In this document: in pieces, positions 5,121 to 51,086 of the stretch
How positions within the stretch are numbered: the first letter of the stretch is position 1
Layout: each line of letters begins with the position of its first letter
Assembly (NCBI GenBank): GCA_040756535.1
Contig: JBFLZA010000001.1
Span: 1 to 51,783 of the forward strand
Reading direction: 5' to 3'
Source: Cyanobacteriota bacterium
GTDB lineage: Bacteria; Cyanobacteriota; Cyanobacteriia; Cyanobacteriales; Coleofasciculaceae
DNA length: 51,783 bases
The notes under the pieces: generated by a model
Databases searched by the model: none
The model's input: only the letters and a program-made list of their open reading frames with translations
What the model was told of the DNA's origin: nothing
Made by a program: the position numbers and the translations under genes

Positions 5121-5161
5121 GTCCAGAATCTCATTTTTCAGTAAAATCATCGAGGATTTCC

Positions 5162-6046: not shown

Positions 6047-6098
6047 GTTCCTCATGGAGAAGATGTAGCTGAACATTCCTCTCACAATACACACAGTT

Positions 6099-8560: not shown

Positions 8561-8685
8561 CCCCACCAAAGTATCCAACGGGATTTCTGCCAAGCCTCAC
8601 TGGATATAGAGTTGACGCCGAACGTAAACGGTACGAATAGCGTCTCTTGAACTCAAATTCCCAAGTCTGAGGATAGCTGCTTGCT

Positions 8686-9025
8686 CTAGAATCCCCTGAC
8701 ATTTGTCTACCCCGACGCGCAAGCTCTATAAACCGCTCAGGGCTTCGATTCTGGCGTTTTGCAGGTAAAACGAAAACGGGCAGCTAAAAAACTTGTCTAC
8801 CCCTTTTTTTAGCCTAAAAATCGCCTGAAAACCAGGCTGTGTAACGCTTTAACTGGGTAGACAAGATTTCTAGAATCCCCTGACATTACCTCTAGAATCC
8901 CCTGACATTCTCTCTAGAATCCCCTGACATATTTTTTTTCAAATCCTTGATTTACAACGGTTTCAGGTGGGTAGACAAAACTAATTAAGCTAATTAAGTT
9001 AAGTGGATGCGTTTTTGTCTACCTT
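8686..9025. promoter_or_regulatory. second repeat cluster plus AT-rich tracts; candidate replication origin core
   Basis: TCTAGAATCCCCTGACAT occurs at 8685, 8869, 8891 and 8913, the last three spaced by 22 bp. The GTCTACC motif is direct at about 8707, 8793 and 9015 and inverted (GGTAGAC) at about 8855 and 8969. T-run at 8933-8940. CTAATTAAGCTAATTAAGTTAAG at about 8981-9003. Confidence 0.55.
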
Positions 9026-9370
9026 AAAAATGCATGTGGTATTAAGTTAGAAGCTTAGTTTTCGGGGAAAGCGCAGGAACCGAAAGCGAAGACAAAAATA
9101 AGAACGCCGAGCGATCGCCAGTCATGTTCGCTCTCGTCATAAAAACGCCAACAGCCGGGTTTTTCGTCTCGCGAACGTCTCCCTAGCTGACTGGCGGTGA
9201 GCTTTCGGTGAAGGCATACCCGAAGTATGTCTCTGCCTTAAATTACCTGCCAGTTAGTAGACAACTGGCGCTCGTTTAGTGTGCGTTCAATCGCCACACG
9301 AGCGTAGTGTGTTGCGTGTACTCGTGCGATCGCCACTTGCGGTGGTGCAATCGCAAGGAGGCTTCGTGCG

Positions 9371-12300: not shown

Positions 12301-12901
12301 AGAGCAAGCTATGGAGAGGTTGCGATCGCTTATTCGCCCGGATGAACAACTTACCTTCTACTTTGTGGGTGACTATGACTTGAGTTTCCTGGGTATGCCT
12401 GTCGAGCAGATAGAGGCTTTTCTGATTGCTCCTGAGGCTGGTACTGCTGCTCAAATCACCCGCTGGAAAATTCAAGAGGCTTTTGGGCAGCTAACCCTAA
12501 GCGGGGAGAAAATCACCCAACAGAAACTGGCGCTTGAAGCCAACGTCACCCAAGGGAGATTGAGCCAGATTGCGGCTGAGTTTGGCGGTTGGGGAGTCCT
12601 CAAAAAAATATTAGCAGCACTATTAGATGGCTTTAATAGCACCACTAATAATTTTTCGGGTTTGTCTGAGGAAGAAAGATGGCTAGCCCAGACTTACTTA
12701 CCGTTGGTTGTTAACGAGATGCACATAGAGGCACTCTCTGAAATTGGGATTGCTGTGAAAGCTTATGGAGTTAAAGGCTTTTTGAGGATTCTTCAGTCCT
12801 GTTCCCTTCCCACTCAAGTTCGACTCTTGAGCCGAATATTTGAGGAGATGCCGGAGGGAGTGCAACAGGAATTGAGGGAGGTGGCGATGGGGAGTGCTTG
12901 A
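9371..12901 (+). CDS. large plasmid-type replication protein (zinc finger, Toprim/DUF3854-like primase region, P-loop helicase; CyRepA-like)
   Basis: CPICSGARRDCREN...HCRH zinc finger. LIEGVGPKPF...GAAGGNF Toprim-like region. Walker A SAPGLGKSHAAG and FWDEAG Walker B-like motif. AAGGAGG sits about 9 nt upstream of the TTG at 9371; an alternative ATG is at 9404. It lies directly downstream of the iterons. Confidence 0.7.
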   Translation: MLYPAPRRSLWMPSTFRPLKRNCPICSGARRDCRENTQNHLIHCRHDVGEVPGYKYVGEDKHGFFMWAVDDGSDRSLEELELKRREREALKQRRLQQEQDRLSQLLSPSERDIQIRKLLAQLGLKAAHRADLHQRGLTDSQIEAGLFRSVEPWQKLDREISHRLAGINIIGSGLTTPHSGYLCPIWNPEGQIIGWQLRLDKTEDGGKYRWSTSASKKRPNGPTAHLPNGELPLTCCHPLEGKPQILAIGLIEGVGPKPFITAIVRSQIIIGAAGGNFAASPETLKAYLDTLSAELGTQQLTLYPDAGAISNSHVMRQYRRLKDLVARWGYTLRVAWWNQIDKDTDLDADELLAAGRGEEIEEITWAEFEAHAHNPHRIYQEIVNLFQKTKSFIQHSVVGFGKVPQRQEVQPLQKPTSVNGHEPAQPKTPFPSSGTLSYVPGQLPTPQEYQDMGCPRIIFQDGQRLQVWQEAVTKGWKHILDKSAPGLGKSHAAGIALPDAFAVEKLWYFALDHRNPTTGVIEQNYTDLPVRNAGMKIDPSRKTPLGNNVVIWPKPGEEPDIPGNCHRAPLFALMRDNNIKGVESSQESPICTGCKLNHLCKGASGAGYGFRSQRKHALKSSRNRAHPDSAPTPIEFPYEKNGAFWDEAGTLIQPMESVTATLADFERVMGELASIAPELHSLLKPLALELKPLFNQQLKPPSRYGFDDAAIRALLPEKPENLTQIIQQLETILQPDFDFIQQPDSIDFDKSISHPMRRLVREHFAKNAYREAATGLENVLLNWFVPFLKVWNGFPGALRCEKGRLTIFSRSTRHTHVIKSLKFNIYLDATISAERLGLLVGIAPEEILAIEQWHCDRNNLRIVQITGMGKLGKERSNGLQIRVQALRTELLRRHPDIAFGDWKAQAEEGDGQWFVNLRGSNEFQNRSALAVFGIPYQNIGYLQALYQTLTGCYASLNEELLLEGLQRFIDAHVEADIEQAMERLRSLIRPDEQLTFYFVGDYDLSFLGMPVEQIEAFLIAPEAGTAAQITRWKIQEAFGQLTLSGEKITQQKLALEANVTQGRLSQIAAEFGGWGVLKKILAALLDGFNSTTNNFSGLSEEERWLAQTYLPLVVNEMHIEALSEIGIAVKAYGVKGFLRILQSCSLPTQVRLLSRIFEEMPEGVQQELREVAMGSA

Positions 12902-12994: not shown

Positions 12995-13729
12995 GTGGAA
13001 CTCAATCCTAAACAGCCATCCTCTGACCTAGCTAATATACCTCCAGTAATGCCAGCGTGCTGGACAACAGCCCGTCGAGAGATACGTGCTTGGTTGCACG
13101 AACAGTCTCCGTCTTTAGCAGAGTTATATGAGAGTGCAGTGAGTTTAACATTTGAAGTCCAGCTTCCCGGTCAGGTTCGACTTGTTGCTCATTGTCTTCG
13201 TGAAATCTGCAATCGATTACCTGATCGTGTGGTCGTACTTGATAAAAAGGGTAGTCGAGTGGATTATGTCAAAGAAATGGATGAAATTGCAGATATTTGG
13301 CAGAAAAATGGTTTCAAGCTAGATGGAACAATTCCCAACTCTGGAATTAGTTCTGGGGTCAGTCTTCCTTCCTCCTCGCCCGATATCATAATCCCCCGTG
13401 AGCTTTTTCTTCCCATTGCAGAACTACTCAAAGAACATGTGGAGAAAAGTTCCACACTTGAACGCAGAGCAATTCACTTTTTTGAAAAGTGTATTCCTGA
13501 CAATCAGCCTTATCCCGACAGGCTGTTTCCCATAGCAAAGCAATGGAAAGATCTCACGAATTGGCTTGCAAAGAAAGCACACGATAATGGTACAGTCGAT
13601 GCCGACTACGATGAGCAGGAACTCCTGTCTAGATTTGAATTGTTCGAGTCGTTTCTTAGCCCATTGGCTCGAAGTTTCTATAGCACTACAGATGAACTCG
13701 ATGAAATCTTGGAAGACACCAACTCCTGA
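12995..13729 (+). CDS. hypothetical protein
   Basis: 244 aa ORF with a GTG start and no recognisable motif. Its 3' end overlaps the next ORF by 29 nt. Confidence 0.5.
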   Translation: MELNPKQPSSDLANIPPVMPACWTTARREIRAWLHEQSPSLAELYESAVSLTFEVQLPGQVRLVAHCLREICNRLPDRVVVLDKKGSRVDYVKEMDEIADIWQKNGFKLDGTIPNSGISSGVSLPSSSPDIIIPRELFLPIAELLKEHVEKSSTLERRAIHFFEKCIPDNQPYPDRLFPIAKQWKDLTNWLAKKAHDNGTVDADYDEQELLSRFELFESFLSPLARSFYSTTDELDEILEDTNS

Positions 13730-16676
13730 ACAAGTTGAGAAAGCCATAGCCCTGATTGTTCACCCTCAGCAAAGCTCTTACTTTTTCAACCATCTCCAAA
13801 ATCCTAAGTGGATTTCCCCATTAAAGAAAAGAGATGTCTTTAAAAATCCTCCCCAAGCCATTCGTGATTCCAGCGAGGGTACTGTCAGCTTCCCAGCTTG
13901 GGCTGAGTCGAGTTATCTAGCGCGAATGGCTCAACACGAACCGAAAGCAGTTTTAGAAATTGCCATTCATACAGAAACCGAAAATCCCAGAATCCACAGA
14001 GATTTTGTTGAAGCTGCACTTCAGATGCCTCCTGAAGAAGCGATGAAAATGGTTGCTAAAGTTAAGACTTGGATCGAGTCCCCTTACTCGTCATTTGCCC
14101 TTCTGCCAGACAAAGTTGGCGCTCTTATTGTGCATCTTGCTAAGGGAGGTCAAGTTAAAAAAGCACTTGAACTAGCTCGGTCACTGCTCGCAGTTATGCC
14201 AGACTCTAGAGCAGAAAATGTAGAAGCCAACGAAGACCGAGTTTACCGTCCTCGTCCCAAACCGCGAACACATCTAGATAACGGGTCTCATAGCTGGCAA
14301 TACGAACGGATACTCAAAAAGTACGTACCAGAGTTGGTGACAATAGCGGGTGAATCTGCACTGAAGATGCTTGGTTACCTGCTCTATGATGCAGTTAAGT
14401 TTTCTCAATACCCTGGAGAAGGAGAGGAACAACAAGAAGACTCCTCTATCTGGGATGATGGGTCAATTTACTGGCGACCTGTAATTGAGAAGCATCCCCG
14501 AAACGACCATCCTTATGAAGTCAAAGAACTTTTGGCAATTGCAGTCCGGGATGCAGCAGAGCAGATTGTAGAAAGTGATCGAGCAAAGATGCGATCGCTA
14601 ATCCTAATGCTGGAAAAATGGCGCTGGCGAATCTTTCATCGCATTGCACTTTACCTGATTCGTAAGTATCCAGACACTGACCGCAATCTTCTCACTGAGA
14701 GATTAGTTGATCAGAAGCGTTTTAGCAATTCCAGTAGTTACGAAGATTATGAATATGTTTTCTTAGCTAAAGAGTATTTTGGCGACTTCCCAGAAGAAGA
14801 ACAAGAAAAAATCTTGGGTTGGATTGAAAATCCTAATCTAGACTTGTCTTGGTGGAAAGATCCAGAGAGAAGAACACAATGGGTGAAATATTGGCAGCTA
14901 AACAAACTGACTCCAATAAAGGATAGTCTTCCAGCCAAGTGGCAACAGCGATATCAGCAACTAGTCAATGAGTGTGGCACTATTGTTGAACTTCCCAATA
15001 TTGTTTTTGGTGGGGTAGGTGGCATAAGAGAATTAGGCATTGAGAGTCCTAAGACTTACTCAGAATTGGAGTCTATGAGTATTGAAGAGTTAGTCTCCTT
15101 CTTAAGGACATGGCAGCCTGACTCTAGAGACCCTTTTGAGCCTGGTTCATCAATTTCAGGAGTAGGATTTCAACTGTCGAGACTGGCAGAACAAAATCCC
15201 GAACGCTTTGCACTGGCAGCCGAACAGTTCAAAGAATTGCGCCTAACGTATTGTTGGAACCTAGTGCGAGGACTACGCAGTGCGCTAGCTAACAACAAAG
15301 GGCAAGAAGGAGAACTCAGAGAATTTTCTTGGTCATCGGTTCTAACGCTCTGTAGTTGGATAGTACAGAAATCTCAACCAAGTCCTGAGTGTGAGACAAT
15401 TGATGATAGCCGTGATTCAGATTTACGTGAAGCTCGTAGAGCAATAGCAGATTTACTAAGAGTTGGTTTTACTATTGAAGGCAACAGTAAAATTCCATTC
15501 CATCTTCGTAGTAAAGTTTGGGATACATTAGAACCTCTCACTCACGATCCAGATCCCACGCCTAAACAAGAGAAGAGTTACAGTACCTCAACTGATAAAT
15601 CACCTAGAGATTTGAGTAATCTTTCAATTAATACTGTTCGCGGTGAAGCCATGCATACAGTAGTACGCTACGCTCTCTGGCTTCGACGATACTTTGAGCA
15701 ATTGCCTGATGGCTCAGAACTAATTAAGAAAGGGTTTGACGAGATGCCAGAAGTTCGACAAGTACTTGACGAGCATCTTGACATAGACCAAGAGCCATCT
15801 CTAGCAATTCGCTCAGTCTATGGACAATGGTTTCCTTGGCTCATGCTGTTAGATGGAAATTGGGCAACTCAAAATGTGGCAAAGATTTTCCCGCATGATG
15901 AGGCTTTGAGCGACCTACGCAGCGCTGCTTGGGAAAGCTACATCAGATATTGCTCTGTCTATGACAATGTCTTCGACTTACTACAGGAAGAATACAGCTA
16001 TGCCGTTGAACGGAGTAACACAGCCTGTAGTAAGAAACAACAACTGACAGAACTGGAGGAAGGTCTTGCCGAACACCTAATGACCTTCTACTGGCGTGGA
16101 AAGCTCCGTTTCGATGAACCGAGGGGCTTGCTAACACTGTTCTATACCGAAGTTCCTGATGTTCTTCGAGGCTATGCTCTCAAATTCGTAGGACGAAGTC
16201 TGCGTAACACAGAAGATGCTATAGAACCCCAAATTCTTAACCGACTTCAGTTGCTTTGGGAAAGACGGCTTGAGGCAGCACGCGCAGCAACGCTACCCAC
16301 TTCGTATATTAATGAGCTTGCTGCCTTTGGCTGGTGGTTTGCCTCAGCGAAGTTTGACGACTCTTGGGCAATTGCTCAGCTCAAAGAGGTTCTTCAGCTT
16401 ATCGGTCAGGTAGAGCCTGACTTCCTGATATTTGAGCGCTTAGCTGCACTTGCGGATAAAATGCCAGAGTCAACTGTTGAGTGCCTCAAACTGATTATCG
16501 AAAAAGACAAGAACGGATTGGGTATTTATGGCAGTGATGATGAGGTAAAAACCATCCTTGCTACTGCTATTCAGGGGAGCAGCGATACAGCGAGACAGAC
16601 TGCCATAGAACTTATTAACCGTTTAGGTCAGTGTGGCAACTGGGAGTTTCGGGAGCTGCTTTCTATCGAGAGCTAA
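13701..16676 (+). CDS. large hypothetical, apparently all-helical protein
   Basis: ORF 13566..16676 trimmed to the in-frame ATG at 13701 (MKSWKTPTPEQVEKAI...), because the upstream extension overlaps the previous gene. About 991 aa. No P-loop or nuclease motif seen by eye. Confidence 0.6.
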   Translation: MKSWKTPTPEQVEKAIALIVHPQQSSYFFNHLQNPKWISPLKKRDVFKNPPQAIRDSSEGTVSFPAWAESSYLARMAQHEPKAVLEIAIHTETENPRIHRDFVEAALQMPPEEAMKMVAKVKTWIESPYSSFALLPDKVGALIVHLAKGGQVKKALELARSLLAVMPDSRAENVEANEDRVYRPRPKPRTHLDNGSHSWQYERILKKYVPELVTIAGESALKMLGYLLYDAVKFSQYPGEGEEQQEDSSIWDDGSIYWRPVIEKHPRNDHPYEVKELLAIAVRDAAEQIVESDRAKMRSLILMLEKWRWRIFHRIALYLIRKYPDTDRNLLTERLVDQKRFSNSSSYEDYEYVFLAKEYFGDFPEEEQEKILGWIENPNLDLSWWKDPERRTQWVKYWQLNKLTPIKDSLPAKWQQRYQQLVNECGTIVELPNIVFGGVGGIRELGIESPKTYSELESMSIEELVSFLRTWQPDSRDPFEPGSSISGVGFQLSRLAEQNPERFALAAEQFKELRLTYCWNLVRGLRSALANNKGQEGELREFSWSSVLTLCSWIVQKSQPSPECETIDDSRDSDLREARRAIADLLRVGFTIEGNSKIPFHLRSKVWDTLEPLTHDPDPTPKQEKSYSTSTDKSPRDLSNLSINTVRGEAMHTVVRYALWLRRYFEQLPDGSELIKKGFDEMPEVRQVLDEHLDIDQEPSLAIRSVYGQWFPWLMLLDGNWATQNVAKIFPHDEALSDLRSAAWESYIRYCSVYDNVFDLLQEEYSYAVERSNTACSKKQQLTELEEGLAEHLMTFYWRGKLRFDEPRGLLTLFYTEVPDVLRGYALKFVGRSLRNTEDAIEPQILNRLQLLWERRLEAARAATLPTSYINELAAFGWWFASAKFDDSWAIAQLKEVLQLIGQVEPDFLIFERLAALADKMPESTVECLKLIIEKDKNGLGIYGSDDEVKTILATAIQGSSDTARQTAIELINRLGQCGNWEFRELLSIES

Positions 16677-16791: not shown

Positions 16792-18147
16792 TTACTCCAG
16801 AATCTCTGACGAAATCGCCCTTAGTGCATCAAGGGCTAGAGTATTCTTTTGTGTTTGAGCATGACGGGAGTAGATTTTCTGTTGCATTTGCGGGCTATGA
16901 CCCATCAAGTCAGCTAAAGACTCCATCACTTCCACACTCGCTCCAGAATTCATCAGGTGAGCGATCGCCATATCCCGAATCAATTGCGGGTTAAAAGCTT
17001 TCCCAGTCAAGCGGTAAGCTACCTGCTTGAAAAGACCACAGAACGTCTCTGAGGTAAAAGGTTTGCCATTTTTCTGAAAAAACACGAAATTGTGCGTTGG
17101 TTCAAAAACCTGCCGCCAACCACAGCGATTACCCTTTTCATCCACGTAACCCTGCCACACCCCTTCCTCATCTTCATAGCCAAACAACCAAGCCTCTAAC
17201 TCCGGGTAATACCACTGTGGGATTGGTATAACACGCTTTTCCCCCAGTTTTGAGTAAGTCTCACCCGTTTTAAAGTCCTCTGGTCCCAATTCCAGATACC
17301 ACACCTCATCCCGCTTCACCAGCGTGCGTCCCAGTTCCAATTCTCTTACCGTGCGGGGTCGCTCCGGAATTGCACTAAAAAAGGCAAAAATTAAATATCG
17401 TTGAATAGAAGTAGCGATCGCGCTCTTGGAGCGCTGTTGATTGCTCTTACCAATCGGCGTACACTCCGCCTTTAGTTGTTTCACACAATTGAGAAACTCC
17501 GGCCAGTCTATCCACTTTGCAGCGTCATTTGCTACCCTTGGAGTTGTTTTCCCCTGTGCCTGGATATCGCTCATAAGCGATCGCAGTTCCTTGAGCACGG
17601 CTTCCTCCCATCTGGAAGTTTCTCTACGGGAACCGCGCTTTGAAACCTGATGGCTAGAAACAGATTCAAGAAACCTTACTACCCAGACAAGCGCTTTCAC
17701 CACCTGCAATTCGTAACTCGGAGCCACTTCCCGTTCCAGCCTGAGCCATTGCAGATAATCCTCAACATTTGCCATTGGTAAGCAGGTTGGCTTCTCCCGA
17801 AAAGCCTCTTCTGCTCTCAAACCACTCTGAGAAAACAGTTCGCTGAGTCTTAAGTGTGAAAGCGGTACAACCGGAGTGCGGTGACGGTGCATCCATCCTA
17901 GAAGCAGCCGCACCTGAGTGAGATAGTTGTTCGCTGTCACTGCCACGATGGACTTCACACCTCGTGCTTCAACACCAACAGAAGTCATAAACCTGTAAAA
18001 CTCAGCCAACTCCTGCCCTAACTCTGGCGTAATTTCAGCATCCGTCAACCCATAACTAGGCTTATGAGAACGACGTGTAACTCGCCTAGCTTTGAAGTCA
18101 GCTTGATGGGAACTCTGGATGGAAGAGGAGTTGGCTTTGGGATTCAT
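16792..18147 (-). CDS. tyrosine site-specific recombinase (phage integrase family)
   Basis: C-terminal IRDMAIAHLMNSGASVEVMESLADLMGHSPQMQQKIYSRH fits the R..H..R / H-x-x-x-x-x-Y catalytic region. Start trimmed to the ATG at 18147 (MNPKANSS). Confidence 0.8.
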   Translation of the reverse strand: MNPKANSSSIQSSHQADFKARRVTRRSHKPSYGLTDAEITPELGQELAEFYRFMTSVGVEARGVKSIVAVTANNYLTQVRLLLGWMHRHRTPVVPLSHLRLSELFSQSGLRAEEAFREKPTCLPMANVEDYLQWLRLEREVAPSYELQVVKALVWVVRFLESVSSHQVSKRGSRRETSRWEEAVLKELRSLMSDIQAQGKTTPRVANDAAKWIDWPEFLNCVKQLKAECTPIGKSNQQRSKSAIATSIQRYLIFAFFSAIPERPRTVRELELGRTLVKRDEVWYLELGPEDFKTGETYSKLGEKRVIPIPQWYYPELEAWLFGYEDEEGVWQGYVDEKGNRCGWRQVFEPTHNFVFFQKNGKPFTSETFCGLFKQVAYRLTGKAFNPQLIRDMAIAHLMNSGASVEVMESLADLMGHSPQMQQKIYSRHAQTQKNTLALDALRAISSEILE

Positions 18148-18433
18148 GAATTGACAAACGAAACAACAACTCGGAAAGGAAGAGCTCGCTTCATACTCGC
18201 TCCCCACTCTTCCCCTCCAGAAAATCCGATTATTCATCTCTCCCCTACGCCAGAGGAGGGAACTTTTCTGTCTTTATCCTCAAAAAGCATTGTGCCAAAT
18301 CCCTGGCAGCGTTCGCCTCTATTCCCAGGAAAATCAAAAAGATTTTCAAAAAATATCTAATCTCATATAATGGTATTAGTGATATATTGGAACGCTACAC
18401 CGCACTTCTCTCACCAGCCACTAGCGTTAAACC

Positions 18434-21400
18434 ATGACAGAAAGGGTCATCACCACTCACCAAAAAGCTCCGCCAAATGCCCCTCTTGCTGTGGAGCTAT
18501 TTGCGGGAGTGGGCGGGTTCTCCCTCGGCATGAAAGCGGCTGGGATAGATGTTGCCTTAGCGATTGAAAAAGACGAACAGACTCAAGCTACCTACTCTCA
18601 AAACTTTCCCTCTACGTCCGTCCTATGTGCTGATGTGCAAGAGCTGACGGGACTTGAGATTCGCCGTCTTCTTGAGGTAGCCCAGAACCAACAGGGTAGA
18701 GAGTGGGATGGGAAAATTGGTCTAGTCTTTGGAGGGCCTCCCTGTCAGGGTTTATCCAGAATTGGCAAACGGGATGTGGATGACCCCCGCAATCAACTAA
18801 TTGCCCATTTCTGTCGTTTGGTCATCGAACTTCAGCCTACTGCTTTTGTTCTGGAAAACGTTCCCGACCTCTTGCTGCCCAAATACGCAGGTTTAATTGA
18901 GCCTTCCCTGCAACAGCTACAACAGGCAGGGTACAACACCTGGACTTGGGTTCTAAATGCCTTAGACTACGGAGTTCCTCAGAATCGAAAACGGGTCTTT
19001 ATCGGAGGAATTCTTCACCACACCTCTCCCCAGTTGCCAGCGGCAGCATCTCAAGTCGTTACCGTTAGGGACGCGATCAGAGACTTAACATTTCTATCAA
19101 AAGAAGCGTTTCCCCAACTCTTTGATACCGATGAATTGCAACTAGACGAGAAGCAATCTTCTCTCGAAGCCCAGCCTTCCGAGTATGTACTCAAACTTGA
19201 ACAGGTATTCCCAGCACCGTTCACAACTAATCCTCACCTACTCACGGGCTGTTGCTTCACCCGTCACACACCGTCAGTTGTTGAACGATTCAAGGCTACC
19301 GCACCGGGAACGACGGAGCCAGAGAGCCGTTTATACCGCCTTAAGTGGGACGGAGTTGCCCGAACTTTGAGAGCAGGAACGGGAAGCGACAAGGGACGGC
19401 ACACCGCTGCACGTCCGATTCACCCCGCCCTAGCCAGAGTACTCATAGTCCGCGAGGCGGCTCGCCTGTCCTCTTTCCCGGACTGGTTCCGTTTTCATCA
19501 TCGGATTTGTCGGGGCATGAGACAAGTTGGGAATGCCGTACCACCGCTATTGGCGCTGGCGGTGGGGAAAGCCATTTATCAATGTTTGGTACAAATAGAG
19601 GGTGCAACAGCAATGGAGACAGCCACTTTAACTCCCGCGATCGCACACATATCGCCCACTCAAAAGCTTACTCCAGGTGAGCATCAACTAGACCCCAAAC
19701 TCCTCAGACCCCACCCGCGCAATGCTTCTCTCTATGGCGAGGATGAAAGTGTAGATGACTTGGTGGAATTGATTCGCAACTCCCACTGGCTCAAGCCGCT
19801 AGTGATTACTCCTGATTTCACTATTATTAGCGGTCATCGGCGCTGGAAAGCAGCCCTTCAGTTAGGGTGGTTGAGTATCCCCGTAATTGTTAGGGAGTTC
19901 AAGGACGCTATTGCTGAGCTAGAAGCGCTGCTGCTGGAGAATGCTACCAGGGAAAAAACGATTGAGCAGAAGGTGCGGGAAGCTGCCTTATGGAAGGAAA
20001 TCGAGCAGGAAAGTGCCAAACAACGACAAGGAACCCGTCGAGACATCCAGGAAAATTTTCCTGGAAGTTGTGAGCAGTTTGGGCAGTCTCGCGATCATGT
20101 GGCACAACGAGTGGGGTTGGGTTCGGGCAAAACTTACCAGAAAGCCGCTAAAGTAGTTGAGGAGATTGATAAAGCCGTTTCGAGCGGACGACTTGCTCGT
20201 GCTAAAGCATTGCGAAGTGTTTTGAATCACCAGAGTGTAGACGGGGCTTTCAAGCTGAGTGAAAAACCCGTTGAAGAGAGCGACCCAATTTTAGAATTAA
20301 TCGCTAGCGGAGAGGTTCGCACGAGCAAGCAAGCCCAGTCGTTGCTAAAGAAGCGGCAACGGAGTAAAGAGCGATCGCTCCTTTATCCTCCTACTCCAGA
20401 AAACGAGCATGACTTGTCCAACTCGCTTTCACATCATCTTACGAAGCAGCCAGGGGGACTTGTAGAGATTTACGCGCCAGAACTTTCTGACTGGCATCAG
20501 CGCCATGCTCGAATAGAATCAGTGGGTGAGAAGCAGTGTAAGGTTTGGAAGCGAAATGTTCAGACGATGGAGATGGAACTACGCAGCTTTCCCCATGCTG
20601 ATTTGACTCCTCTTCCCTTGGAGGAAGTGCCGTCCCTTCTGGAAATCAGTACACGTATAAAGGCATTGTACCAAATAGGAGGTCTAGACCCGTTTGAGCG
20701 ATACATTTTACAGTCGCTAGAGCGTTGCGTAAATTTGACTCCAACTGAACTGGAATATCTCAACCAAATTGAGTTGAAATATCAGCAAGGACAACCATCA
20801 AACCAGAAGGGAACAGGGAATGGGGAACGGGAAACAGTGAGGAGCGAAGCGTTCCCCGTTCCCTCGTTAAACCCGTCAGTACCTGATGTTACCCCCCTAC
20901 ATCAGCACTCAATACCTGTTACCTCTCCTCATGAATGTCGAATCGAAACCTTTGAGTTTCCTCTACCTCCAACACTCAATGAAATGATTCGCACAGCTAG
21001 AGGCGGTTGGCAAGCTTCGGCTAAAGAAAAGCGGGAGTGGACAGAATTAATTGCCTCTTACTGTAAGGGAGCGTATCAATTTAAAGGAAAAATTTGGCTG
21101 GAGTATATATGGCGGGTGAAGAATTTAGCTCGCGACAATAACAACATTGCTGCCGCAACTAAGTATATTGATGATGGCTTAGTTGAAGCTGGAGTGATGG
21201 CGGATGATTCACTCAAATATATCCAGTCTCCAGTCTGCCATTGGTACGTTCAAAGTAGTGAAGATATGGTTACTGTCAGGGTAGCCAACGTGCCTATTTA
21301 CAACGGTCAGCCATTAATAACAATTGATGGTTCAAGCGAGTTTCTTTCTGCTGTTTCAACCCAAGTGCAATTGTCGAAAGCACTGCGGAATGTTTCACCA

Positions 21401-21487
21401 GCAACGCTATCTAGCCCAAATCCAACAGTGGAGAATCCTCAAGAGCTGCTTTTATCAAAGTCAAACTCTATGTCCTACGCTCCATAA
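18434..21487 (+). CDS. fusion protein: DNA (cytosine-5) methyltransferase, ParB-like nuclease/HTH domain, RusA-like C-terminal domain
   Basis: C5-MTase motifs: ELFAGVGGFSLG (I), GGPPCQGLS (IV), ENV (VI), QNRKRVF (VIII), GNAVPPLLA (X). ParB/Srx-like LRPHPRN...IISGHRRWKAALQLG. The C-terminal FPLPPTLNEMIRTARGG ... RDNNNIAAATKYIDDGLVEAGVMADDS resembles the RusA pattern LPWPPS.N..Y ... D.DN..K...DAL..AG...DD. Confidence 0.85.
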   Translation: MTERVITTHQKAPPNAPLAVELFAGVGGFSLGMKAAGIDVALAIEKDEQTQATYSQNFPSTSVLCADVQELTGLEIRRLLEVAQNQQGREWDGKIGLVFGGPPCQGLSRIGKRDVDDPRNQLIAHFCRLVIELQPTAFVLENVPDLLLPKYAGLIEPSLQQLQQAGYNTWTWVLNALDYGVPQNRKRVFIGGILHHTSPQLPAAASQVVTVRDAIRDLTFLSKEAFPQLFDTDELQLDEKQSSLEAQPSEYVLKLEQVFPAPFTTNPHLLTGCCFTRHTPSVVERFKATAPGTTEPESRLYRLKWDGVARTLRAGTGSDKGRHTAARPIHPALARVLIVREAARLSSFPDWFRFHHRICRGMRQVGNAVPPLLALAVGKAIYQCLVQIEGATAMETATLTPAIAHISPTQKLTPGEHQLDPKLLRPHPRNASLYGEDESVDDLVELIRNSHWLKPLVITPDFTIISGHRRWKAALQLGWLSIPVIVREFKDAIAELEALLLENATREKTIEQKVREAALWKEIEQESAKQRQGTRRDIQENFPGSCEQFGQSRDHVAQRVGLGSGKTYQKAAKVVEEIDKAVSSGRLARAKALRSVLNHQSVDGAFKLSEKPVEESDPILELIASGEVRTSKQAQSLLKKRQRSKERSLLYPPTPENEHDLSNSLSHHLTKQPGGLVEIYAPELSDWHQRHARIESVGEKQCKVWKRNVQTMEMELRSFPHADLTPLPLEEVPSLLEISTRIKALYQIGGLDPFERYILQSLERCVNLTPTELEYLNQIELKYQQGQPSNQKGTGNGERETVRSEAFPVPSLNPSVPDVTPLHQHSIPVTSPHECRIETFEFPLPPTLNEMIRTARGGWQASAKEKREWTELIASYCKGAYQFKGKIWLEYIWRVKNLARDNNNIAAATKYIDDGLVEAGVMADDSLKYIQSPVCHWYVQSSEDMVTVRVANVPIYNGQPLITIDGSSEFLSAVSTQVQLSKALRNVSPATLSSPNPTVENPQELLLSKSNSMSYAP

Positions 21488-21866
21488 AACTAGATGACTA
21501 ATCAGGATATGATGAGTGCGATCTGCGCTGACGCTCGAAGACTCGCTAACGCTCCGCTATCGCAGCAGCGCTAGGCTTACGCCGACGCTCGTTCCTCGCT
21601 ACCGCTTCGCTATCGCTTCGCTAACGCTATCGCTAGCAATAAATGGATACGTGCTAGTAAACTATGGCAACCGACCCTACCTTGACTCAAGCTTGCCTGA
21701 AAGCGTCTCCCATCAATTGTAGTGAACACCTGTTGCCGCAGGGTCGTCTGAAATTCACCCGAAGCGATCGCACCGAGTGTTGCTTCCATTTTGTTTAGCG
21801 TTGCTTGGAGTGGATTGATGCGATCGGCACAGACGCCTTCACCGCTGATGCCATCTTAGAAGCTGC

Positions 21867-22340
21867 TTATATAGATTCAATGACCCTAAGAATATCTTCA
21901 TCAGTAGCCGGACTATTATTATCAATAACCGCATCCCATTTATGGTTAATGCTTGCTGCTATCTTATTGTATTCTTCTACTTTCTCATCTGATACGGGTA
22001 TGTGTTCTGAATTGTCTCTATTTCTCACTCTTCTCAAACACTCTTCTAAATCCGCATAGACTTTTACTAGCTTGACTTCGTATTTATTTCTTAATGACGA
22101 ATGCATCTGATTGAATCCGTCTCCTGCCCCTAAACTTTCAATCATCACCTTACTATGCTGCTGAAACTCCTTATCAATTTCCTTCTCAACTGTTTCCCAA
22201 CCATTCTCACCTGGCGCTAATTTCAGCCATATCGGCTCTACTCTTAAAAATTTTATGTCTGTATTTTTATTGACTCGACTTCCAATATATGTCTTTCCTG
22301 AGCCTTTTGGTCCAATGAGTATGTATAGTATTTTCCTCAT
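21867..22340 (-). CDS. small P-loop kinase/ATPase-like protein
   Basis: Walker A LIGPKGSGKTYIG at the N-terminus. The 157 aa size is typical of AAA_33/shikimate-kinase-like small kinases. Confidence 0.65.
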   Translation of the reverse strand: MRKILYILIGPKGSGKTYIGSRVNKNTDIKFLRVEPIWLKLAPGENGWETVEKEIDKEFQQHSKVMIESLGAGDGFNQMHSSLRNKYEVKLVKVYADLEECLRRVRNRDNSEHIPVSDEKVEEYNKIAASINHKWDAVIDNNSPATDEDILRVIESI

Positions 22341-22405
22341 CTTGTTATTACCTCTAACGGCTCTACTTGTATTGCAAACATGACGACAGGAGTTTACCCC
22401 CTAGT

Positions 22406-23608
22406 TCATACCGTTAACTGTATCTGCGTTACCCCTTGGCGCAACTGGCGCTGCCTAGAGAGCCAAGAGTGCCTCACGCGCTTGCCCAGCAGGGGTGCTA
22501 GCTGACTCGCCGCCCATCGCAGCAGTCCGCTCTTACGCAGTCGCTCAGCCTGAGTTGCTTCCTGACGTTGAAGCTGCTGCGCTCGAATAATCTCTGGCTC
22601 CCGCTTAGCTTGAATCTGTGGCAAGACGGCATCAATTGCCGCATCTGTTGCCCCGTCACGTAACAGGGGAACCAGATGATTGGCCGCAACAATCACATCC
22701 CGCAACGCCATATTGATGCCTTGGGCGCGAATCGGCGACATCGGGTGAACCGCATCGCCCAACAGCAGTAACCCTGGTGCATACCAATGCGGACAACGCC
22801 CGACTACAACGGATAACAAAACAGGCCGCTCAATAGTTTCTGCATGAGTTCGGATATGCTCGGCTAACCACGGGGGCGATGCTTCTGCCAAAACGACAGG
22901 CCAAGCGGCTTGCTTCCAGTCCATTGGGGCATCGTCATGGAGTGCCCAGCCTATCTGAAGATTCCCCTCAGAAGAGCGAAACAGCCCAAATGCATAGCGA
23001 TCGCGCACAATCGAATAAAATATATTCTCGGATTCAAAGCGCGAGCTATCCGCCAATTTAAACCAAAGAATATCAAAGCTTCCGGACTGCTGCTCTAGAG
23101 GTAAGTTGGCTCGCTGCCGAACAACGGAATTACGACCATCCGCCCCAATGACTAGGTTGGCACAAATAGAGCGATCGTCACCCAGCTTCACACCCGAAAC
23201 CCGTTGCTCGCTCCACAGCAAATCCTGCACGGGACTGCCCTGGATAAACTCAAAATTGGGATAAGCTTTTGCCTGGTCGATTAACGCTTCCAGGAAAGGT
23301 GGCTGTGAGACGAGGGTGCAGGGCTTACCACCCGGTTCGATTGGCTCATCAACTCGAAACAGAAATCGGTTTTCGATCAGAACCTCCCAGGCATCCAACG
23401 GTCGATGGGGGATGCTCTCTAGCACAGACGACAATCCCATCTGCTCGATCGCATCCAACCCACTGGGCATCAGTCCTTCACCGCGAAAAACTCTTCGGAA
23501 GTTCCGGGATGCTTCAATCAGTTTGACGGCGATGCCTCGTTTCACGAGAAGCAGTGCAAGCGTTGCACCAGAAGGTCCTGCCCCGACAATTACAACCTGA
23601 GTCATCAC
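22406..23608 (-). CDS. FAD-dependent monooxygenase (UbiH/aromatic-ring hydroxylase-like)
   Basis: N-terminal dinucleotide-binding motif VVIVGAGPSGATLALLLVKRGIAVKLIE. Downstream GADGRNS and LLGDAVHPMSP motifs are typical of flavoprotein monooxygenases. Confidence 0.85.
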   Translation of the reverse strand: MMTQVVIVGAGPSGATLALLLVKRGIAVKLIEASRNFRRVFRGEGLMPSGLDAIEQMGLSSVLESIPHRPLDAWEVLIENRFLFRVDEPIEPGGKPCTLVSQPPFLEALIDQAKAYPNFEFIQGSPVQDLLWSEQRVSGVKLGDDRSICANLVIGADGRNSVVRQRANLPLEQQSGSFDILWFKLADSSRFESENIFYSIVRDRYAFGLFRSSEGNLQIGWALHDDAPMDWKQAAWPVVLAEASPPWLAEHIRTHAETIERPVLLSVVVGRCPHWYAPGLLLLGDAVHPMSPIRAQGINMALRDVIVAANHLVPLLRDGATDAAIDAVLPQIQAKREPEIIRAQQLQRQEATQAERLRKSGLLRWAASQLAPLLGKRVRHSWLSRQRQLRQGVTQIQLTV

Positions 23609-23777
23609 GTTAAAACTGCATTGATGACTTCAGAATAGCAAACTTGTCTGTGCAGGGAATTGATGTCCGCTGTCGCTTGCCTAGCGCGAGGCAATCTTTA
23701 AAATTAAGTTTCGCCCTAGTAACTAACCTACGTGATGTTTAGTTTAGGGGAGTTTTTCACTCTAAGTACGGGAGAGC

Positions 23778-23807
23778 CAACATCCAGGAAAATTTTCCTG
23801 GATGTTG
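23778..23807. repeat. perfect 30 bp palindrome within a roughly 65 bp remnant homologous to the ParB-region coding sequence at about 20043-20105
   Basis: CAACATCCAGGAAAATTTTCCTGGATGTTG is self-complementary. The following TTATCAGTTCGGGTTGTCTTGCGATCGCTGG resembles TTGTGAGCAGTTTGGGCAGTCTCGCGATCATGTGG at about 20068. Confidence 0.8.
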
Positions 23808-23902
23808 TTATCAGTTCGGGTTGTCTTGCGATCGCTGGCTACTACGGTACGGTAGCCAGCCTCGTCAGTTTATAACACTCCTGACTAATTATTGAAAACT
23901 CT

Positions 23903-50811: not shown

Positions 50812-51086
50812 CTTAATTTTTCCTAGTGATACATCCACGTATAGCGTTTTCAAACAAGACAAGAAAAATTGTTGTATTTTTCTTGGTTAGGAAAATTGAA
50901 TAATTGCAAGTTTCTTCATTACCTGGAGGCAGTTGGCTTCCTGTTGATAAACTAGACGCACTCGCCGGACAATTACCTGCATCACCGTTACTGCATACTG
51001 TAGGGATGCATAATCGCTGCCAAAGACTAAACGGTTGCCCTCCCAAAAAAGCATGGGCGTTTGTGAGGGAAATTTACTGTGGACTT

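What the first reader, a model, noticed from the sequence alone, without database searches (positions are those of the whole stretch)
18434..21487. Single 1017 aa ORF fusing C5-cytosine methyltransferase, ParB-like domain and RusA-like domain
All the canonical Dcm-type motifs occupy the first ~390 residues. A ParB/Srx-type segment follows (HPRN...GHRRW) with an HTH-like region. The last ~150 residues resemble the RusA Holliday-junction resolvase pattern (LPPTLNEM...GG ... RDNNNI...KYIDDGLVEAGVMADDS). One of the RusA acidic positions is possibly replaced by Asn.

ParB-methylase fusions are known from phages and plasmids. Those I know of pair ParB with N6/N4 amino-methylases. I do not recognise a C5 methylase placed N-terminal to ParB with a resolvase-like tail as a described architecture.

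No restriction endonuclease candidate is adjacent, so it looks like an orphan, mobile-element-borne enzyme. Possible roles include self-marking, anti-restriction or partition, or a toxin-like nuclease.
Basis: partly seen in the sequence, partly recalled or inferred. Interest (0 to 1): 0.7.

Follow-up and report, generated by a model that had tools for sequence, protein, structure and literature searches.

The report
Cytosine methylase fused to ParB and RusA
A rare cyanobacterial mobile-element gene joins a working-looking DNA cytosine methylase to a ParB-type DNA clamp and to a Holliday-junction-resolvase fold that has lost a key catalytic residue, so it looks like a methylase that is steered onto particular DNA; the exact function has not been tested.

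Summary
Window 18434-21487 (+) is one uninterrupted 1017-aa ORF. It contains a complete C5-cytosine methyltransferase (aa 1-395), a ParB N-domain plus HTH of the CTP-clamp type (aa 415-650), an SH3-like barrel and three-helix bundle (aa 676-784), a disordered linker, and a RusA-fold domain (aa 837-955).

The RusA assignment rests on a PHROG hit (2e-19), a family profile that hits only E. coli RusA in PDB (6.7e-5), and fold matches (TM 0.70-0.72). Pfam RusA misses it.

The equivalent of catalytic RusA D72 is Asn903. It is Asp in 151 of 156 family representatives and Asn only in ParB-fused forms. A second fused clade loses either this residue or the D90/D91 pair. The domain still has the lowest dN/dS in the protein (0.16). 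It is therefore probably a retained, non-cleaving DNA-binding or dimerising module.

The fusion is real: at least seven full-length clusters, plus a second clade. It travels with a divergent tyrosine recombinase, its outer flanks vary, and no restriction partner is conserved.

A 24-30-bp palindrome inside the ParB-coding region is conserved at nucleotide level even in ParB relatives of 31-61% identity, and it recurs intergenically. It is a candidate parS-like site.

Verdict: a new variant of the ParB-methyltransferase fusions.

The parts
18434..21487 (+). Complete 1017-aa fusion ORF, stop codon included
   Evidence: the ORF listing. Full-length relatives at 85-91% identity in 7 clusters. Re-translated from 5 loci without stops.
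18434..19618 (+). C5-cytosine DNA methyltransferase domain (aa 1-395) with motifs I, IV (PCQ), VI, VIII, IX and X intact
   Evidence: Pfam PF00145 E 2.1e-59 and TIGR00675 above cut-off. PDB 3g7u E 2.4e-60 over the full length. Motif positions. dN/dS 0.28.
19676..20029 (+). ParB N-terminal domain (aa 415-532), CTP-clamp type: HPRN, GHRRWKAA, ENATRE
   Evidence: Pfam ParB_N 44 bits. phmmer hits to Spo0J 1vz0 at 5.7e-11, and to Noc and Caulobacter ParB. Foldseek hits to ParB, Noc, KorB and pNOB8 ParB at 5e-8 to 1e-4. dN/dS 0.17.
20084..20383 (+). Helical DNA-binding region with HTH (aa 551-650; QSRDHVAQRVGLGSGKTYQKAAKVV)
   Evidence: AF2 helices 151-250 of model mf1eaca9c6048. Foldseek ParB, Noc and KorB alignments of 210-280 columns cover the N-domain plus HTH.
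20043..20070 (.). Intragenic near-perfect palindrome ACATCCAGGAAAATTTTCCTGGAAGTTG (codes DIQENFPG, aa 537-544). Candidate parS-like or operator site.
   Evidence: It lies in the longest invariant nucleotide run of the gene across 5 loci (36 nt). The core is exact in 7 independent loci. It is also exact in ParB relatives with only 59-60% nucleotide and 37-40% third-position identity.
23778..23807 (.). Intergenic perfect 30-bp palindrome CAACATCCAGGAAAAT/ATTTTCCTGGATGTTG. The similarity to the intragenic copy continues to 23833 (54 nt, 87%).
   Evidence: 0 matches expected in shuffles. Equivalent extragenic copies lie on the Symplocastrum contig at 8.7 kb and 57.5 kb, and in L028.
20459..20614 (+). 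Five-stranded SH3-like beta-barrel (aa 676-727)
   Evidence: AF2 strands 276-327. Foldseek 3c4s, TM 0.84, rmsd 1.7. Shared with P0015, P0016, clade 2 and the ParB-only proteins P0303-P0305.
20630..20785 (+). Three-helix bundle (aa 733-784)
   Evidence: AF2 helices 333-384. The sequence is conserved in clade 2 and in ParB-only relatives.
20792..20938 (+). Pro/Ser-rich disordered linker (aa 787-835)
   Evidence: pLDDT below 50 for model residues 387-418. dN/dS 0.39.
20942..21298 (+). RusA-fold domain (aa 837-955)
   Evidence: phrog_1682 E 2e-19. Family profile to 1q8r at E 6.7e-5, the only PDB family hit. Foldseek 2h8c_D TM 0.72 and 1q8r_B TM 0.70. dN/dS 0.16, the lowest in the protein.
21131..21148 (+). 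Degenerate catalytic motif RDNNNI (aa 900-905). Asn903 (21140-21142) replaces the RusA D72 equivalent. The equivalents of D70 (D901), K76 (K910) and D90/D91 (D924/D925) are kept.
   Evidence: Family alignment: the D72 equivalent is Asp in 151/156 representatives and Asn only in fused forms. Alignments to RusA. D70, D72, K76 and D90/91 are critical for cleavage (PMC1636454; PMC10956419).
21314..21484 (+). Variable C-terminal tail (aa 961-1017)
   Evidence: DNA homology to L001 and L010 stops at 21316-21340, and to L009 and L011 at 21478-21522. dN 0.63 and dS 1.14. Clade 2 proteins end directly after the RusA fold.
16792..18237 (-). Divergently transcribed tyrosine recombinase (481 aa here, 451 aa in relatives), conserved partner of the fusion gene
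   Evidence: Pfam Phage_integrase E 1.5e-7 at the C-terminus; weak XerD-type hits. Adjacent in L001, L002, L010 and L011, and as a cut-off, unannotated 392-aa ORF at the same position in L009. DNA homology starts 0-13 nt from its stop codon.
18238..18433 (.). 196-bp divergent intergenic region between the recombinase gene and the fusion gene
   Evidence: Coordinates. It lies within the block that is 88-91% identical in all relatives. It was not analysed further.

Best explanation
SHOWN. The gene encodes one polypeptide with these modules in order:
- a catalytically complete C5-cytosine methyltransferase;
- a ParB N-domain with the nucleotide-binding boxes of CTP-dependent ParB clamps, plus an HTH;
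- an SH3-like barrel;
- a three-helix bundle;
- a flexible linker;
- a RusA-fold domain in which a metal-binding aspartate (the RusA D72 equivalent) is Asn.

The gene forms a roughly 4.6-kb two-gene unit with a divergent tyrosine recombinase. That unit sits in different genomic contexts in filamentous cyanobacteria and has no conserved restriction partner.

INFERRED.
- It is an orphan, mobile-element-borne methylase whose non-catalytic half is a DNA-targeting platform.
- The ParB-HTH part recognises the palindrome embedded in its own coding sequence, and the extragenic copies. It may then clamp and slide in a CTP-dependent way, so that methylation is concentrated on the element and nearby DNA.
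- The RusA-fold domain no longer cuts. It is kept as an obligate-dimer module that binds branched or duplex DNA. It supplies the C-terminal dimerisation a ParB clamp needs, or draws the enzyme to replication and recombination intermediates.
- The probable benefit is self-marking or protection of the element's DNA from cytosine-sensitive restriction in new hosts.
For: Architecture.

The fusion is real and selected. There are 7 full-length clusters. A second clade (P0295, P0297, P0298) has the same domain order but a Dcm only 25% identical, which argues for a platform onto which different C5 methylases were placed. dN/dS is 0.16-0.31 in all folded modules.

Loss of catalysis. The D72 equivalent is Asp in 151/156 family representatives and Asn only in fused proteins. 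P0298 keeps it but has 'NG' in place of D90/D91. These residues are critical for RusA cleavage, and the D70N variant still binds DNA, as its DNA co-crystal structure shows (PMC1636454; PMC10956419). The free-standing closest relatives (P0137-P0140, P0144, P0145) keep all of them and sit in phage or phage-plasmid contexts.

Cis site. The 25-nt identical run against a 59-60% nucleotide background is shared by ParB relatives with and without Dcm and RusA. Extragenic copies exist. No recombinase homologue was found in L026 or L033, so the site travels with the ParB and not with the integrase.

Orphan and mobile. Flanks vary, the recombinase is conserved, and no REase was found. ParB-middle relatives lie on cyanobacterial plasmids, and one (L026) sits beside a large primase/helicase-type replication protein.
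Against: - No biochemical datum exists for any member. Methylation, CTP binding, palindrome binding and lack of cleavage are all inferences.
- Asn can still ligate Mg2+, and an extra Asp (D913, shared by P0295 and P0297) might compensate, so the domain could retain activity.
- Box II reads GHRR rather than GERR, so CTP binding is not assured.
- The peptide DIQENFPG is itself conserved, so part of the palindrome's conservation is protein-level.
- No comparable palindrome was found in clade 2 genes.
- The ParB-middle proteins without RusA (P0303-P0305, L026) show that the RusA domain is not essential to that platform.
- The methylase's target sequence is unknown.
Confidence: 0.5

Rival explanations
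1. The RusA-like domain is still an active structure-specific nuclease. Either Asn903 is tolerated or the neighbouring D913 substitutes for it. The protein would then combine methylation with junction or branch cleavage. It could resolve concatemers or recombination intermediates of the element, or act as a single-chain modification-plus-nuclease (restriction-like or toxic) enzyme.
For: D70, K76 and D90/D91 equivalents are all retained in the window clade. The domain is under strong purifying selection, dN/dS 0.16. The fused forms P0295 and P0297 share with the window an extra Asp before the invariant helix Asp (KYIDDGL / KFIDDGL), where the family mostly has L, M or F. The closest free-standing relatives are ordinary-looking phage resolvases.
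Against: D72 is listed among the residues critical for RusA endonuclease activity (PMC1636454). The substitution is confined to fused proteins (3 of 156 representatives). A fused relative (P0298) has lost the D90/D91 pair instead, which is the pattern expected when catalysis is dispensable. A constitutively tethered junction nuclease on a DNA clamp would be hazardous.
Confidence: 0.2
2. The non-methylase half mainly serves maintenance or regulation of the mobile element. It would be a KorB/ParB-like clamp that silences or partitions the element from the palindromic site. The methylase would be a secondary passenger, and the RusA fold would merely replace the ParB C-terminal dimerisation domain.
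For: Fold matches to KorB, Noc and ParB. ParB-middle relatives occur on cyanobacterial plasmids, and one lies beside a primase/helicase-type replication gene. The palindrome is shared with relatives that lack Dcm and RusA. RusA is an obligate homodimer (PMC10956419).
Against: No ParA partner was found among the neighbours scanned in the window. TIGR00180 parB_part scores below its cut-off (53.7 against 58.45). The window copy is in a chromosomal-looking context next to housekeeping-type genes. Dcm domains were attached in both clades, which suggests methylation is the point of the fusion.
Confidence: 0.17
3. The protein is an accessory factor of the adjacent tyrosine recombinase. The dead RusA domain would bind the Holliday-junction intermediate of integration or excision, and the palindrome (11-nt arms around AAAATTTT) would be the recombinase core site, so that copies inside and outside the gene mediate rearrangement.
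For: The recombinase gene is invariably adjacent wherever that flank is complete. The palindrome has a lox/FRT-like layout. Similarity between the internal and external copies extends on one side only, as after site-specific recombination. Window and Symplocastrum share homology out to the external copy.
Against: The same palindrome sits in ParB genes with no recombinase homologue on the contig (L026, L033). L009, L010, L011 and L012 show no external copy within the fetched DNA. Recombination between the two window copies would truncate the gene. Clade 2 has the RusA fusion, but its integrase is 4 kb away and of a different, 280-aa type.
Confidence: 0.08
4. The long ORF is an artefact, or a recent read-through of separate genes (a sequencing frameshift or a lost stop codon), and the RusA part is non-functional baggage.
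For: In Trichocoleus sp. Lan the region is annotated as two proteins on one contig: P0012 (839 aa) and P0126 (159 aa, starting at an internal Met of the RusA domain). Many database entries are fragments.
Against: There are seven independent full-length clusters and a second clade with the same junction. Five DNA loci translate without stops. The RusA domain has the lowest dN/dS in the protein. P0126 lacks the first ~20 residues of the fold, so the Trichocoleus split looks like the derived or defective state.
Confidence: 0.03

Closest known systems
ParB-domain / DNA methyltransferase fusions of phages and plasmids (ParBc PF02195 with N6_N4_Mtase PF01555, MT-A70 PF05063 or Dam PF05869)
   Same: A ParB N-domain is covalently joined to a DNA methyltransferase on a mobile element. 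The literature notes that such fusions are frequent and of unknown function (PMC12783734). The ParB part of the related P0158 (clade 2) hits dozens of them.
   Different: In this protein the methylase is a C5-cytosine enzyme and lies N-terminal to ParB. The ParB part is the long ParB/Noc/KorB-like form with HTH. It is followed by an SH3-like barrel, a helical bundle and a RusA fold. None of the fusions listed with N6/N4 methylase domains carries these extra modules.
RusA Holliday-junction resolvase (E. coli DLP12 RusA, PDB 1Q8R and 2H8C; Pfam PF05866; phage RusA-like resolvases)
   Same: The same fold and order of secondary-structure elements (TM 0.70-0.72). The conserved motif pattern is R-D-x-D-N ... 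K ... D ... DD. Free-standing close relatives lie in phage contexts.
   Different: The domain is not free-standing: it is the C-terminal module of a 1017-aa protein. The D72 equivalent is Asn. It scores below Pfam's RusA model (no hit at E<=10). It is predicted to bind DNA rather than cut it.
CTP-dependent ParB-family clamps (chromosomal ParB/Spo0J, Noc, plasmid RK2 KorB)
   Same: The N-domain boxes (RPHPRN / GHRRWKAA / ENATRE) and the following HTH align in sequence and in structure. A palindromic candidate site lies inside the protein's own gene, as parS does in B. subtilis spo0J (my own knowledge, not checked here).
   Different: No canonical ParB C-terminal dimerisation domain was recognised. 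No ParA partner was found. TIGR00180 scores below its cut-off. Box II has His for Glu. The protein carries an enzyme domain at its N-terminus.
Orphan C5-cytosine methyltransferases of prophages and mobile elements (e.g. PDB 3G7U; PADLOC MTase_II and oMTase models)
   Same: The Dcm domain is full length and aligns end to end with 3g7u (E 2.4e-60) and with PADLOC MTase_II models (4e-100). No cognate endonuclease is present.
   Different: There is a 620-residue C-terminal extension with DNA-targeting modules. Close Dcm relatives in other filamentous cyanobacteria (P0017-P0021) carry unrelated long extensions.

Membership tests
C5-cytosine DNA methyltransferase (Pfam PF00145 / TIGR00675 dcm) | Score above the curated cut-offs | tested here: met
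   PF00145 202 bits against 22; TIGR00675 148.9 against 100.65.
C5-cytosine DNA methyltransferase (Pfam PF00145 / TIGR00675 dcm) | Conserved motifs I (FxGxG), IV (PCQ catalytic Cys), VI (ENV), VIII (QxRxR), IX and X (GNAV) | tested here: met
   FAGVGG 23-28, PPCQG 102-106, ENV 141-143, QNRKR 183-187, REAARL 340-345, GNAVPP 366-371.
C5-cytosine DNA methyltransferase (Pfam PF00145 / TIGR00675 dcm) | Produces 5-methylcytosine at a defined motif | not testable with these tools
   Needs methylome data or an enzyme assay. The target sequence is unknown.
ParB/Srx superfamily, CTP-clamp ParB type | ParB N-domain above the Pfam cut-off, with box I, II (GxRRxRA) and III (ENxxRE) motifs | tested here: met
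   PF02195 44 bits against 26.3. RPHPRN, GHRRWKAA and ENATRE align to Spo0J 1vz0. Note His for Glu in box II.
ParB/Srx superfamily, CTP-clamp ParB type | HTH DNA-binding domain directly after the N-domain | tested here: met
   Foldseek alignments of 210-280 columns to ParB, Noc and KorB N+HTH structures. Helices at aa 551-650.
ParB/Srx superfamily, CTP-clamp ParB type | Canonical partition ParB: curated model score, C-terminal ParB dimerisation domain, adjacent ParA | tested here: not met
   TIGR00180 53.7 against a cut-off of 58.45. Downstream of the HTH, the PDB matches listed are to an SH3-like fold (3c4s) and to RusA; the ParB-family alignments are 210-280 columns long. No ParA-type hit among the neighbours scanned.
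ParB/Srx superfamily, CTP-clamp ParB type | CTP binding or hydrolysis, and loading at a parS-type site | not testable with these tools
   Only a candidate site was found: a palindrome conserved at nucleotide level.
RusA Holliday-junction resolvase (Pfam PF05866) | Match to the curated Pfam model | tested here: not met
   No PF05866 hit for the window domain at E<=10. However, 11 of 37 members of its wider family do hit it, best E 9.6e-8.
RusA Holliday-junction resolvase (Pfam PF05866) | RusA fold (four-stranded sheet plus two helices) and profile-level homology | tested here: met
   Family profile to 1q8r at E 6.7e-5, the only PDB family hit. Foldseek TM 0.70-0.72, rmsd 3.5-3.8. phrog_1682 at 2e-19.
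RusA Holliday-junction resolvase (Pfam PF05866) | Complete catalytic set: D70, D72, K76, D91 | tested here: not met
   D901, N903 (in place of D72), K910, D924/D925. D72 is critical for cleavage (PMC1636454).
RusA Holliday-junction resolvase (Pfam PF05866) | Homodimer that binds and cleaves four-way junctions | not testable with these tools
   Needs biochemistry or multimer modelling.
Type II restriction-modification system | Cognate restriction endonuclease gene adjacent and co-conserved | tested here: not met
   The window neighbours are a recombinase, a Dsr1-like protein, a P-loop kinase-like protein and an FAD monooxygenase. The outer flanks differ in all five loci.
Known ParB-methyltransferase fusions (ParBc + N6/N4 amino-methyltransferase) | ParB domain joined to an amino-methyltransferase (PF01555, PF05063 or PF05869) | tested here: not met
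   The methylase here is PF00145 and N-terminal. The amino-MTase fusions appear only as distant ParB hits.

The most novel reading that the evidence does not exclude
This may be a 'sliding methyltransferase'. A CTP-gated ParB clamp would load at a palindromic parS-like site embedded in its own coding sequence and carry a C5-cytosine methylase along the DNA. The clamp would be closed, or directed to branched replication and recombination intermediates, by a resolvase fold that evolution has disarmed. If so, it would be a mechanism for cis-restricted epigenetic marking of a mobile element, and a natural example of a dead Holliday-junction resolvase reused as a DNA-structure sensor.
Probability: 0.2. 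Interest if true: 0.8.

Novelty: new variant of a known kind. Interest (0 to 1): 0.55.

Why it matters
ParB-methyltransferase fusions are common on phages and plasmids, but their logic is unknown (PMC12783734). This family offers an unusually legible case for three reasons:

- The ParB half is of the well-understood CTP-clamp type.
- A candidate loading site can be named from sequence alone.
- The extra RusA fold has a specific, testable catalytic lesion.

If the methylase is delivered in cis from that site, it would show how a mobile element can mark its own DNA without methylating the whole host genome. It would also add a natural precedent for catalytically dead junction resolvases as targeting modules, an idea already used in engineering (RusA D70N-FokI fusions, PMC12120656, listed). 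It also defines a cyanobacterial ParB subfamily and its probable binding site on plasmids and integrative elements.

Tried and rejected
- Direct Pfam and PDB sequence searches with the C-terminal 217 or 125 residues found no RusA. The relationship only emerged through PHROGs, a family profile and structure.
- The first AF2 model of the RusA domain, from a 6-sequence alignment, was weak (pLDDT 62). It was superseded by the 20-sequence model.
- Restriction partner or defence-system membership: PADLOC gave only generic MTase hits for the fusion. The Dsr1-like neighbour is not conserved with it, except in L011.
- Terminal repeats or att sites at the cassette ends: none were convincing.
- A palindrome in clade 2, in the P0305 ParB-only locus (L018) and in the P0016 locus (L007): none was comparable.
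- Viral origin: neither fusion clade is present in IMG/VR, in INPHARED phages or in PLSDB plasmids as a full-length protein. An alignment-based viral scan failed for lack of conserved stretches.
- The long C-termini of the nearest Dcm relatives P0017-P0021 are unrelated to ParB or RusA.
- Literature searches for the architecture returned nothing relevant.
- The frameshift-artefact reading was rejected.

Full report

Yes. The ORF listing returns a single ATG-initiated ORF at 18434..21487 (+) of 1017 aa. Composition is unremarkable, about 48-52% GC.

Seven database clusters of 996-1027 aa from independent assemblies and MAGs are 85-91% identical over 96-100% of the length. These include Symplocastrum torsivum and an unclassified Cyanobacteriota MAG; shorter clusters in the same clade are named Allocoleopsis, Stenomitos, Microcoleus and Trichocoleus. 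I re-translated the gene from five DNA loci without meeting a stop. A frameshift or read-through artefact is therefore excluded for the family.

The one split case is Trichocoleus sp. Lan. There P0012 (839 aa) and P0126 lie on one contig, and P0126 starts at an internal Met of the last domain. It looks like a derived defect. I did not inspect its DNA.

**2. Domain anatomy**

| Residues | Module | Main evidence |
|---|---|---|
| aa 1-395 | C5-cytosine methyltransferase | PF00145 E 2.1e-59; TIGR00675 above cut-off; end-to-end match to PDB 3g7u, E 2.4e-60; all six classical motifs, including the PCQ cysteine |
| aa 415-532 | ParB N-domain | PF02195 above cut-off; boxes RPHPRN, GHRRWKAA and ENATRE align to T. 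thermophilus Spo0J, Noc and Caulobacter ParB |
| aa 551-650 | HTH / helical region | AF2 model |
| aa 676-727 | five-stranded beta-barrel | closest PDB 3c4s, an SH3-like fold, TM 0.84 |
| aa 733-784 | three-helix bundle | AF2 model |
| aa 787-830 | disordered Pro/Ser-rich linker | pLDDT below 50 |
| aa 837-951 | alpha/beta (RusA-fold) domain | see section 3 |

The structural assignments come from an AF2 model of aa 401-965, built on a 20-sequence alignment (pLDDT 75.7). Foldseek matches the first ~250 residues of that model to ParB-CDP/CTPgammaS, Noc, KorB and pNOB8 ParB-N at E 5e-8 to 1e-4. The ParB part is therefore of the CTP-clamp type and not the short Srx or 'nuclease' type.

**3. Is the C-terminal domain RusA?**

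Pfam's RusA model and a direct PDB sequence search both miss it. Four independent lines agree that it is nevertheless a RusA fold:

- PHROGs gives phrog_1682 'RusA-like Holliday junction resolvase' at E 2e-19, and phrog_34 at 1e-8.
- An exhaustive profile search finds 2621 representative proteins with E<=0.001. Nearly all of the 150 best listed are free-standing proteins of about 115-185 aa.
- A 37-member profile of that family hits only E. coli RusA in the whole PDB (1q8r, E 6.7e-5, residues 5-116). Eleven of the 37 members reach PF05866.
- Foldseek places RusA structures as the best match for this domain in both models. With the weak first model RusA took the top six places. With the better model the values were TM 0.72 for 2h8c_D and 0.70 for 1q8r_B, rmsd 3.5-3.8 Å. 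The viral library likewise returns phage 'RusA-like resolvase' proteins.

**4. The catalytic lesion**

Aligned to RusA, the window has D901 (D70), N903 (D72), N904 (N73), K910 (K76), D914 (D80) and D924/D925 (D90/D91).

Counts in 156 family representatives:

| RusA position | Conserved residue | Count |
|---|---|---|
| D70 equivalent | Asp | 154 |
| D72 equivalent | Asp | 151 |
| K76 equivalent | Lys | 153 |
| D91 equivalent | Asp | 153 |

The only Asn at the D72 position are two fragments of the window clade and P0158. P0158 turned out to be a truncated member of a second fusion clade. In that clade P0295 and P0297 read RDPNN, while P0298 keeps RDPDN but has 'NG' where D90/D91 should be.

D70, D72, K76 and D90/91 are the residues critical for RusA endonuclease activity, and the aspartates bind Mg2+. 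The D70N variant was crystallised bound to DNA, so it still binds DNA (PMC1636454; PMC10956419).

The fused domain is not decaying. Across five loci its dN/dS is 0.16, the lowest of any segment. The others are Dcm 0.28, ParB_N 0.17, HTH 0.31, middle 0.30 and linkers about 0.4.

Different catalytic residues are lost in different fused lineages, while purifying selection stays strong. That is the signature of a domain retained for something other than cleavage. A caveat is that the window, P0295 and P0297 share an extra Asp (D913), which could conceivably compensate. I keep an 'active nuclease' rival at about 0.2.

**5. Evolutionary assembly**

The fused RusA domains of both clades fall in one small subclade together with six free-standing, catalytically intact proteins (P0137-P0140, P0144, P0145; NJ tree). 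P0140 lies among phage portal, Mu-F and tail-completion genes. Planktothrix plasmids carry free-standing copies next to KilA-N, Bro-N and Gp37/Gp68 genes.

The barrel-plus-bundle 'middle' region occurs in several settings:

- with ParB alone (P0303-P0305, 383-411 aa);
- with Dcm and ParB but a different C-terminus (P0015, P0016);
- in annotated 'ParB N-terminal domain-containing proteins' on Planktothrix and Gloeocapsa plasmids; on Planktothrix p1 that protein sits next to a tyrosine recombinase.

The two fusion clades share the middle and RusA parts at about 40-47% identity. Their Dcm domains are only 25% identical, with different target-recognition regions, and their ParB boxes differ (GHRRW against DGHHRF). 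So a ParB-middle(-RusA) platform has been combined with different C5 methylases.

The nearest Dcm relatives in other filamentous cyanobacteria carry unrelated long C-termini.

Neither fusion clade appears as a full-length protein in IMG/VR, INPHARED or PLSDB. Among 185,579 species-representative genomes only Allocoleopsis (93%), Symplocastrum and Stenomitos MAGs have it.

**6. Genomic setting**

A 451-481-aa tyrosine recombinase is divergently adjacent in the window, L001, L002, L010 and L011. Its Phage_integrase hit is confined to the C-terminus, and it has weak XerD-type matches. In L009 a cut-off, unannotated 392-aa ORF lies at the same position.

DNA identity of about 88-91% begins 0-13 nt from the recombinase stop codon and ends at or just inside the 3' end of the fusion gene. 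L011 is the exception: it also shares the upstream Dsr1-like gene. Genes beyond those limits differ in every locus. The two genes therefore behave as a roughly 4.6-kb unit, although I could not find terminal repeats.

No restriction endonuclease candidate is adjacent or co-conserved. Clade 2 genes sit beside a DnaB-type helicase, a small integrase and, in one case, a GmrSD_N protein.

**7. An unexpected cis element**

Window 23778-23807 is a perfect 30-bp palindrome, CAACATCCAGGAAAAT/ATTTTCCTGGATGTTG. It lies in an intergenic region. A one-mismatch copy lies inside the fusion gene at 20043-20070, just upstream of the HTH-coding segment, where it encodes DIQENFPG. The similarity extends to 54 nt on the 3' side only (none expected in shuffles).

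Evidence for nucleotide-level conservation:

- The core is exact in all seven independent window-clade loci. It lies in the longest invariant nucleotide run of the gene, 36 nt where 73% of columns are invariant overall.
- The 24-mer occurs in only ten stretches of the whole metagenome collection.
- Several of those stretches are ParB genes only 31-61% identical in protein (L026, L029, L031, L033). Against the window, L026, L031 and L033 show 59-60% nucleotide identity and 37-40% third-position identity. Yet the longest identical run in each is the same 25 nt of the palindrome, and the next longest is 10-11 nt.
- L026 encodes a 481-aa ParB-HTH-barrel protein without Dcm or RusA, directly upstream of a 1149-aa primase/helicase-type replication protein. 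No recombinase homologue was detected on that contig.
- Extragenic copies occur in L028, and twice more on the Symplocastrum contig, at 8.7 and 57.5 kb.

The site therefore goes with this ParB subfamily and not with the integrase. The simplest reading is a parS-like or operator site for the protein's own HTH. This is analogous to the parS inside B. subtilis spo0J, which I cite from my own knowledge and did not check here.

The palindrome contains two CCWGG pentamers. Whether that relates to the methylase's specificity is unknown. No comparable palindrome was found in clade 2 genes.

**8. Most likely mechanism (inference)**

I read the protein as an orphan, element-borne C5 methylase tethered to a DNA-targeting platform, working in three steps:

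- The ParB-HTH part recognises the palindrome and may clamp or slide in a nucleotide-dependent way. This would concentrate methylation on the element and neighbouring DNA.
- The disarmed RusA dimer provides C-terminal dimerisation, affinity for branched or duplex DNA, or both.
- The pay-off is self-marking or protection against cytosine-sensitive restriction.

Confidence by level: about 0.95 for the anatomy, about 0.6 for 'RusA domain does not cleave', and about 0.35 for cis-targeted methylation. I give 0.5 for the composite statement.

The rivals, each with a refuting experiment listed in the report sections, are:

- an active nuclease (0.2);
- a KorB/ParB-like maintenance or silencing factor with the methylase as passenger (0.17);
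- a recombinase accessory or recombination site (0.08);
- an artefact (0.03).

**9. Comparison with known systems, and novelty**

ParB-methyltransferase fusions are well known but involve amino-methyltransferases. The searchable literature calls their function unknown. I found no paper that describes a Dcm-ParB-RusA protein.

Public annotation calls these proteins 'DNA (cytosine-5-)-methyltransferase'. For two JGI fragments of clade 2 it reads 'Holliday junction resolvase RusA-like endonuclease'.

The protein passes the membership tests for C5 methylases and for the ParB N-domain/HTH. It fails those for a canonical partition ParB: it scores below TIGR00180, no ParA is present, and no ParB C-domain was recognised. 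For RusA it has the fold and the profile-level homology, but it fails both the curated Pfam model and the catalytic-set test.

I class it as a new variant of a known kind. It is rare and taxonomically narrow, but mechanistically suggestive and readily testable.

Noticed in passing
window 23778-23833 and 20043-20096; L001 7107-7126 and 8725-8744; L030 10098-10121; L026 2145-2168; L028 1569-1592: A 24-30-bp palindrome (CATCCAGGAAAATTTTCCTGGATG core, with two CCWGG pentamers) lies inside the ParB-coding sequence and recurs in intergenic DNA. It is conserved at nucleotide level in ParB genes down to 31% protein identity. The extragenic copies also share about 30 nt of 3' flank with the gene.
   Followed up: yes
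window 13566-16676 (+) and 12995-13729 (+): A 1036-aa ORF matches the PADLOC Dsr1 model only over profile positions 306-1192 of 1227 (E 8.6e-45), so the N-terminal SIR2 effector part is missing. An overlapping 244-aa ORF with no family hit lies just upstream and could be a replaced or frameshifted effector domain. The gene is shared with L011 but not with the other relatives.
   Followed up: partly
window 21317-23842 compared with L001 8369-8783: In the window, a P-loop kinase-like gene (21867-22340, -; weak AAA_33, shikimate-kinase and BrxF hits) and an intact FAD-dependent monooxygenase gene (22406-23608, -) lie between the fusion gene and the external palindrome. In Symplocastrum only short remnants of the monooxygenase gene remain there.
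   Followed up: partly
window 3582-12901: Upstream there is a large serine recombinase (3582-5120; Resolvase + Recombinase + Zn ribbon), a multi-HTH protein (5162-6046), and two large ORFs with no Pfam or PADLOC hit (6099-8009, 636 aa; 9371-12901, 1176 aa). Together with the Dsr1-like gene this looks like a mobile or defence island.
   Followed up: no
P0012 and P0126 (Trichocoleus sp. Lan, one 73,317-bp contig): In this isolate genome the fusion is annotated as two proteins. The second starts at an internal Met of the RusA domain, which suggests a frameshift or nonsense mutation, or an assembly error, between aa ~839 and ~850. The DNA was not inspected.
   Followed up: no
P0295, P0297, P0298 (loci L015-L017): The second fusion clade has an atypical C5-methylase motif IV (LSCSHF rather than PCQ). 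It sits beside a DnaB-type helicase, a small integrase and, in L017, a GmrSD_N protein, which suggests a replicative mobile element.
   Followed up: partly
P0017-P0021, P0025 (Symploca, Leptolyngbyaceae, Planktothrix): The closest Dcm relatives outside the family carry 550-750-residue C-terminal extensions. These have no Pfam hit, are rich in coiled coil, and contain a barrel-like motif (e.g. ARVKVLTSPEGWSGYTGEVV). They are unrelated to ParB or RusA, so this Dcm subfamily is repeatedly fused to uncharacterised modules.
   Followed up: partly
window 34912-39576 (+), 40969-47169 (-), 47296-50862 (-): There are three very large ORFs (1554, 2066 and 1188 aa) in the right-hand third of the window. 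They were not examined.
   Followed up: no
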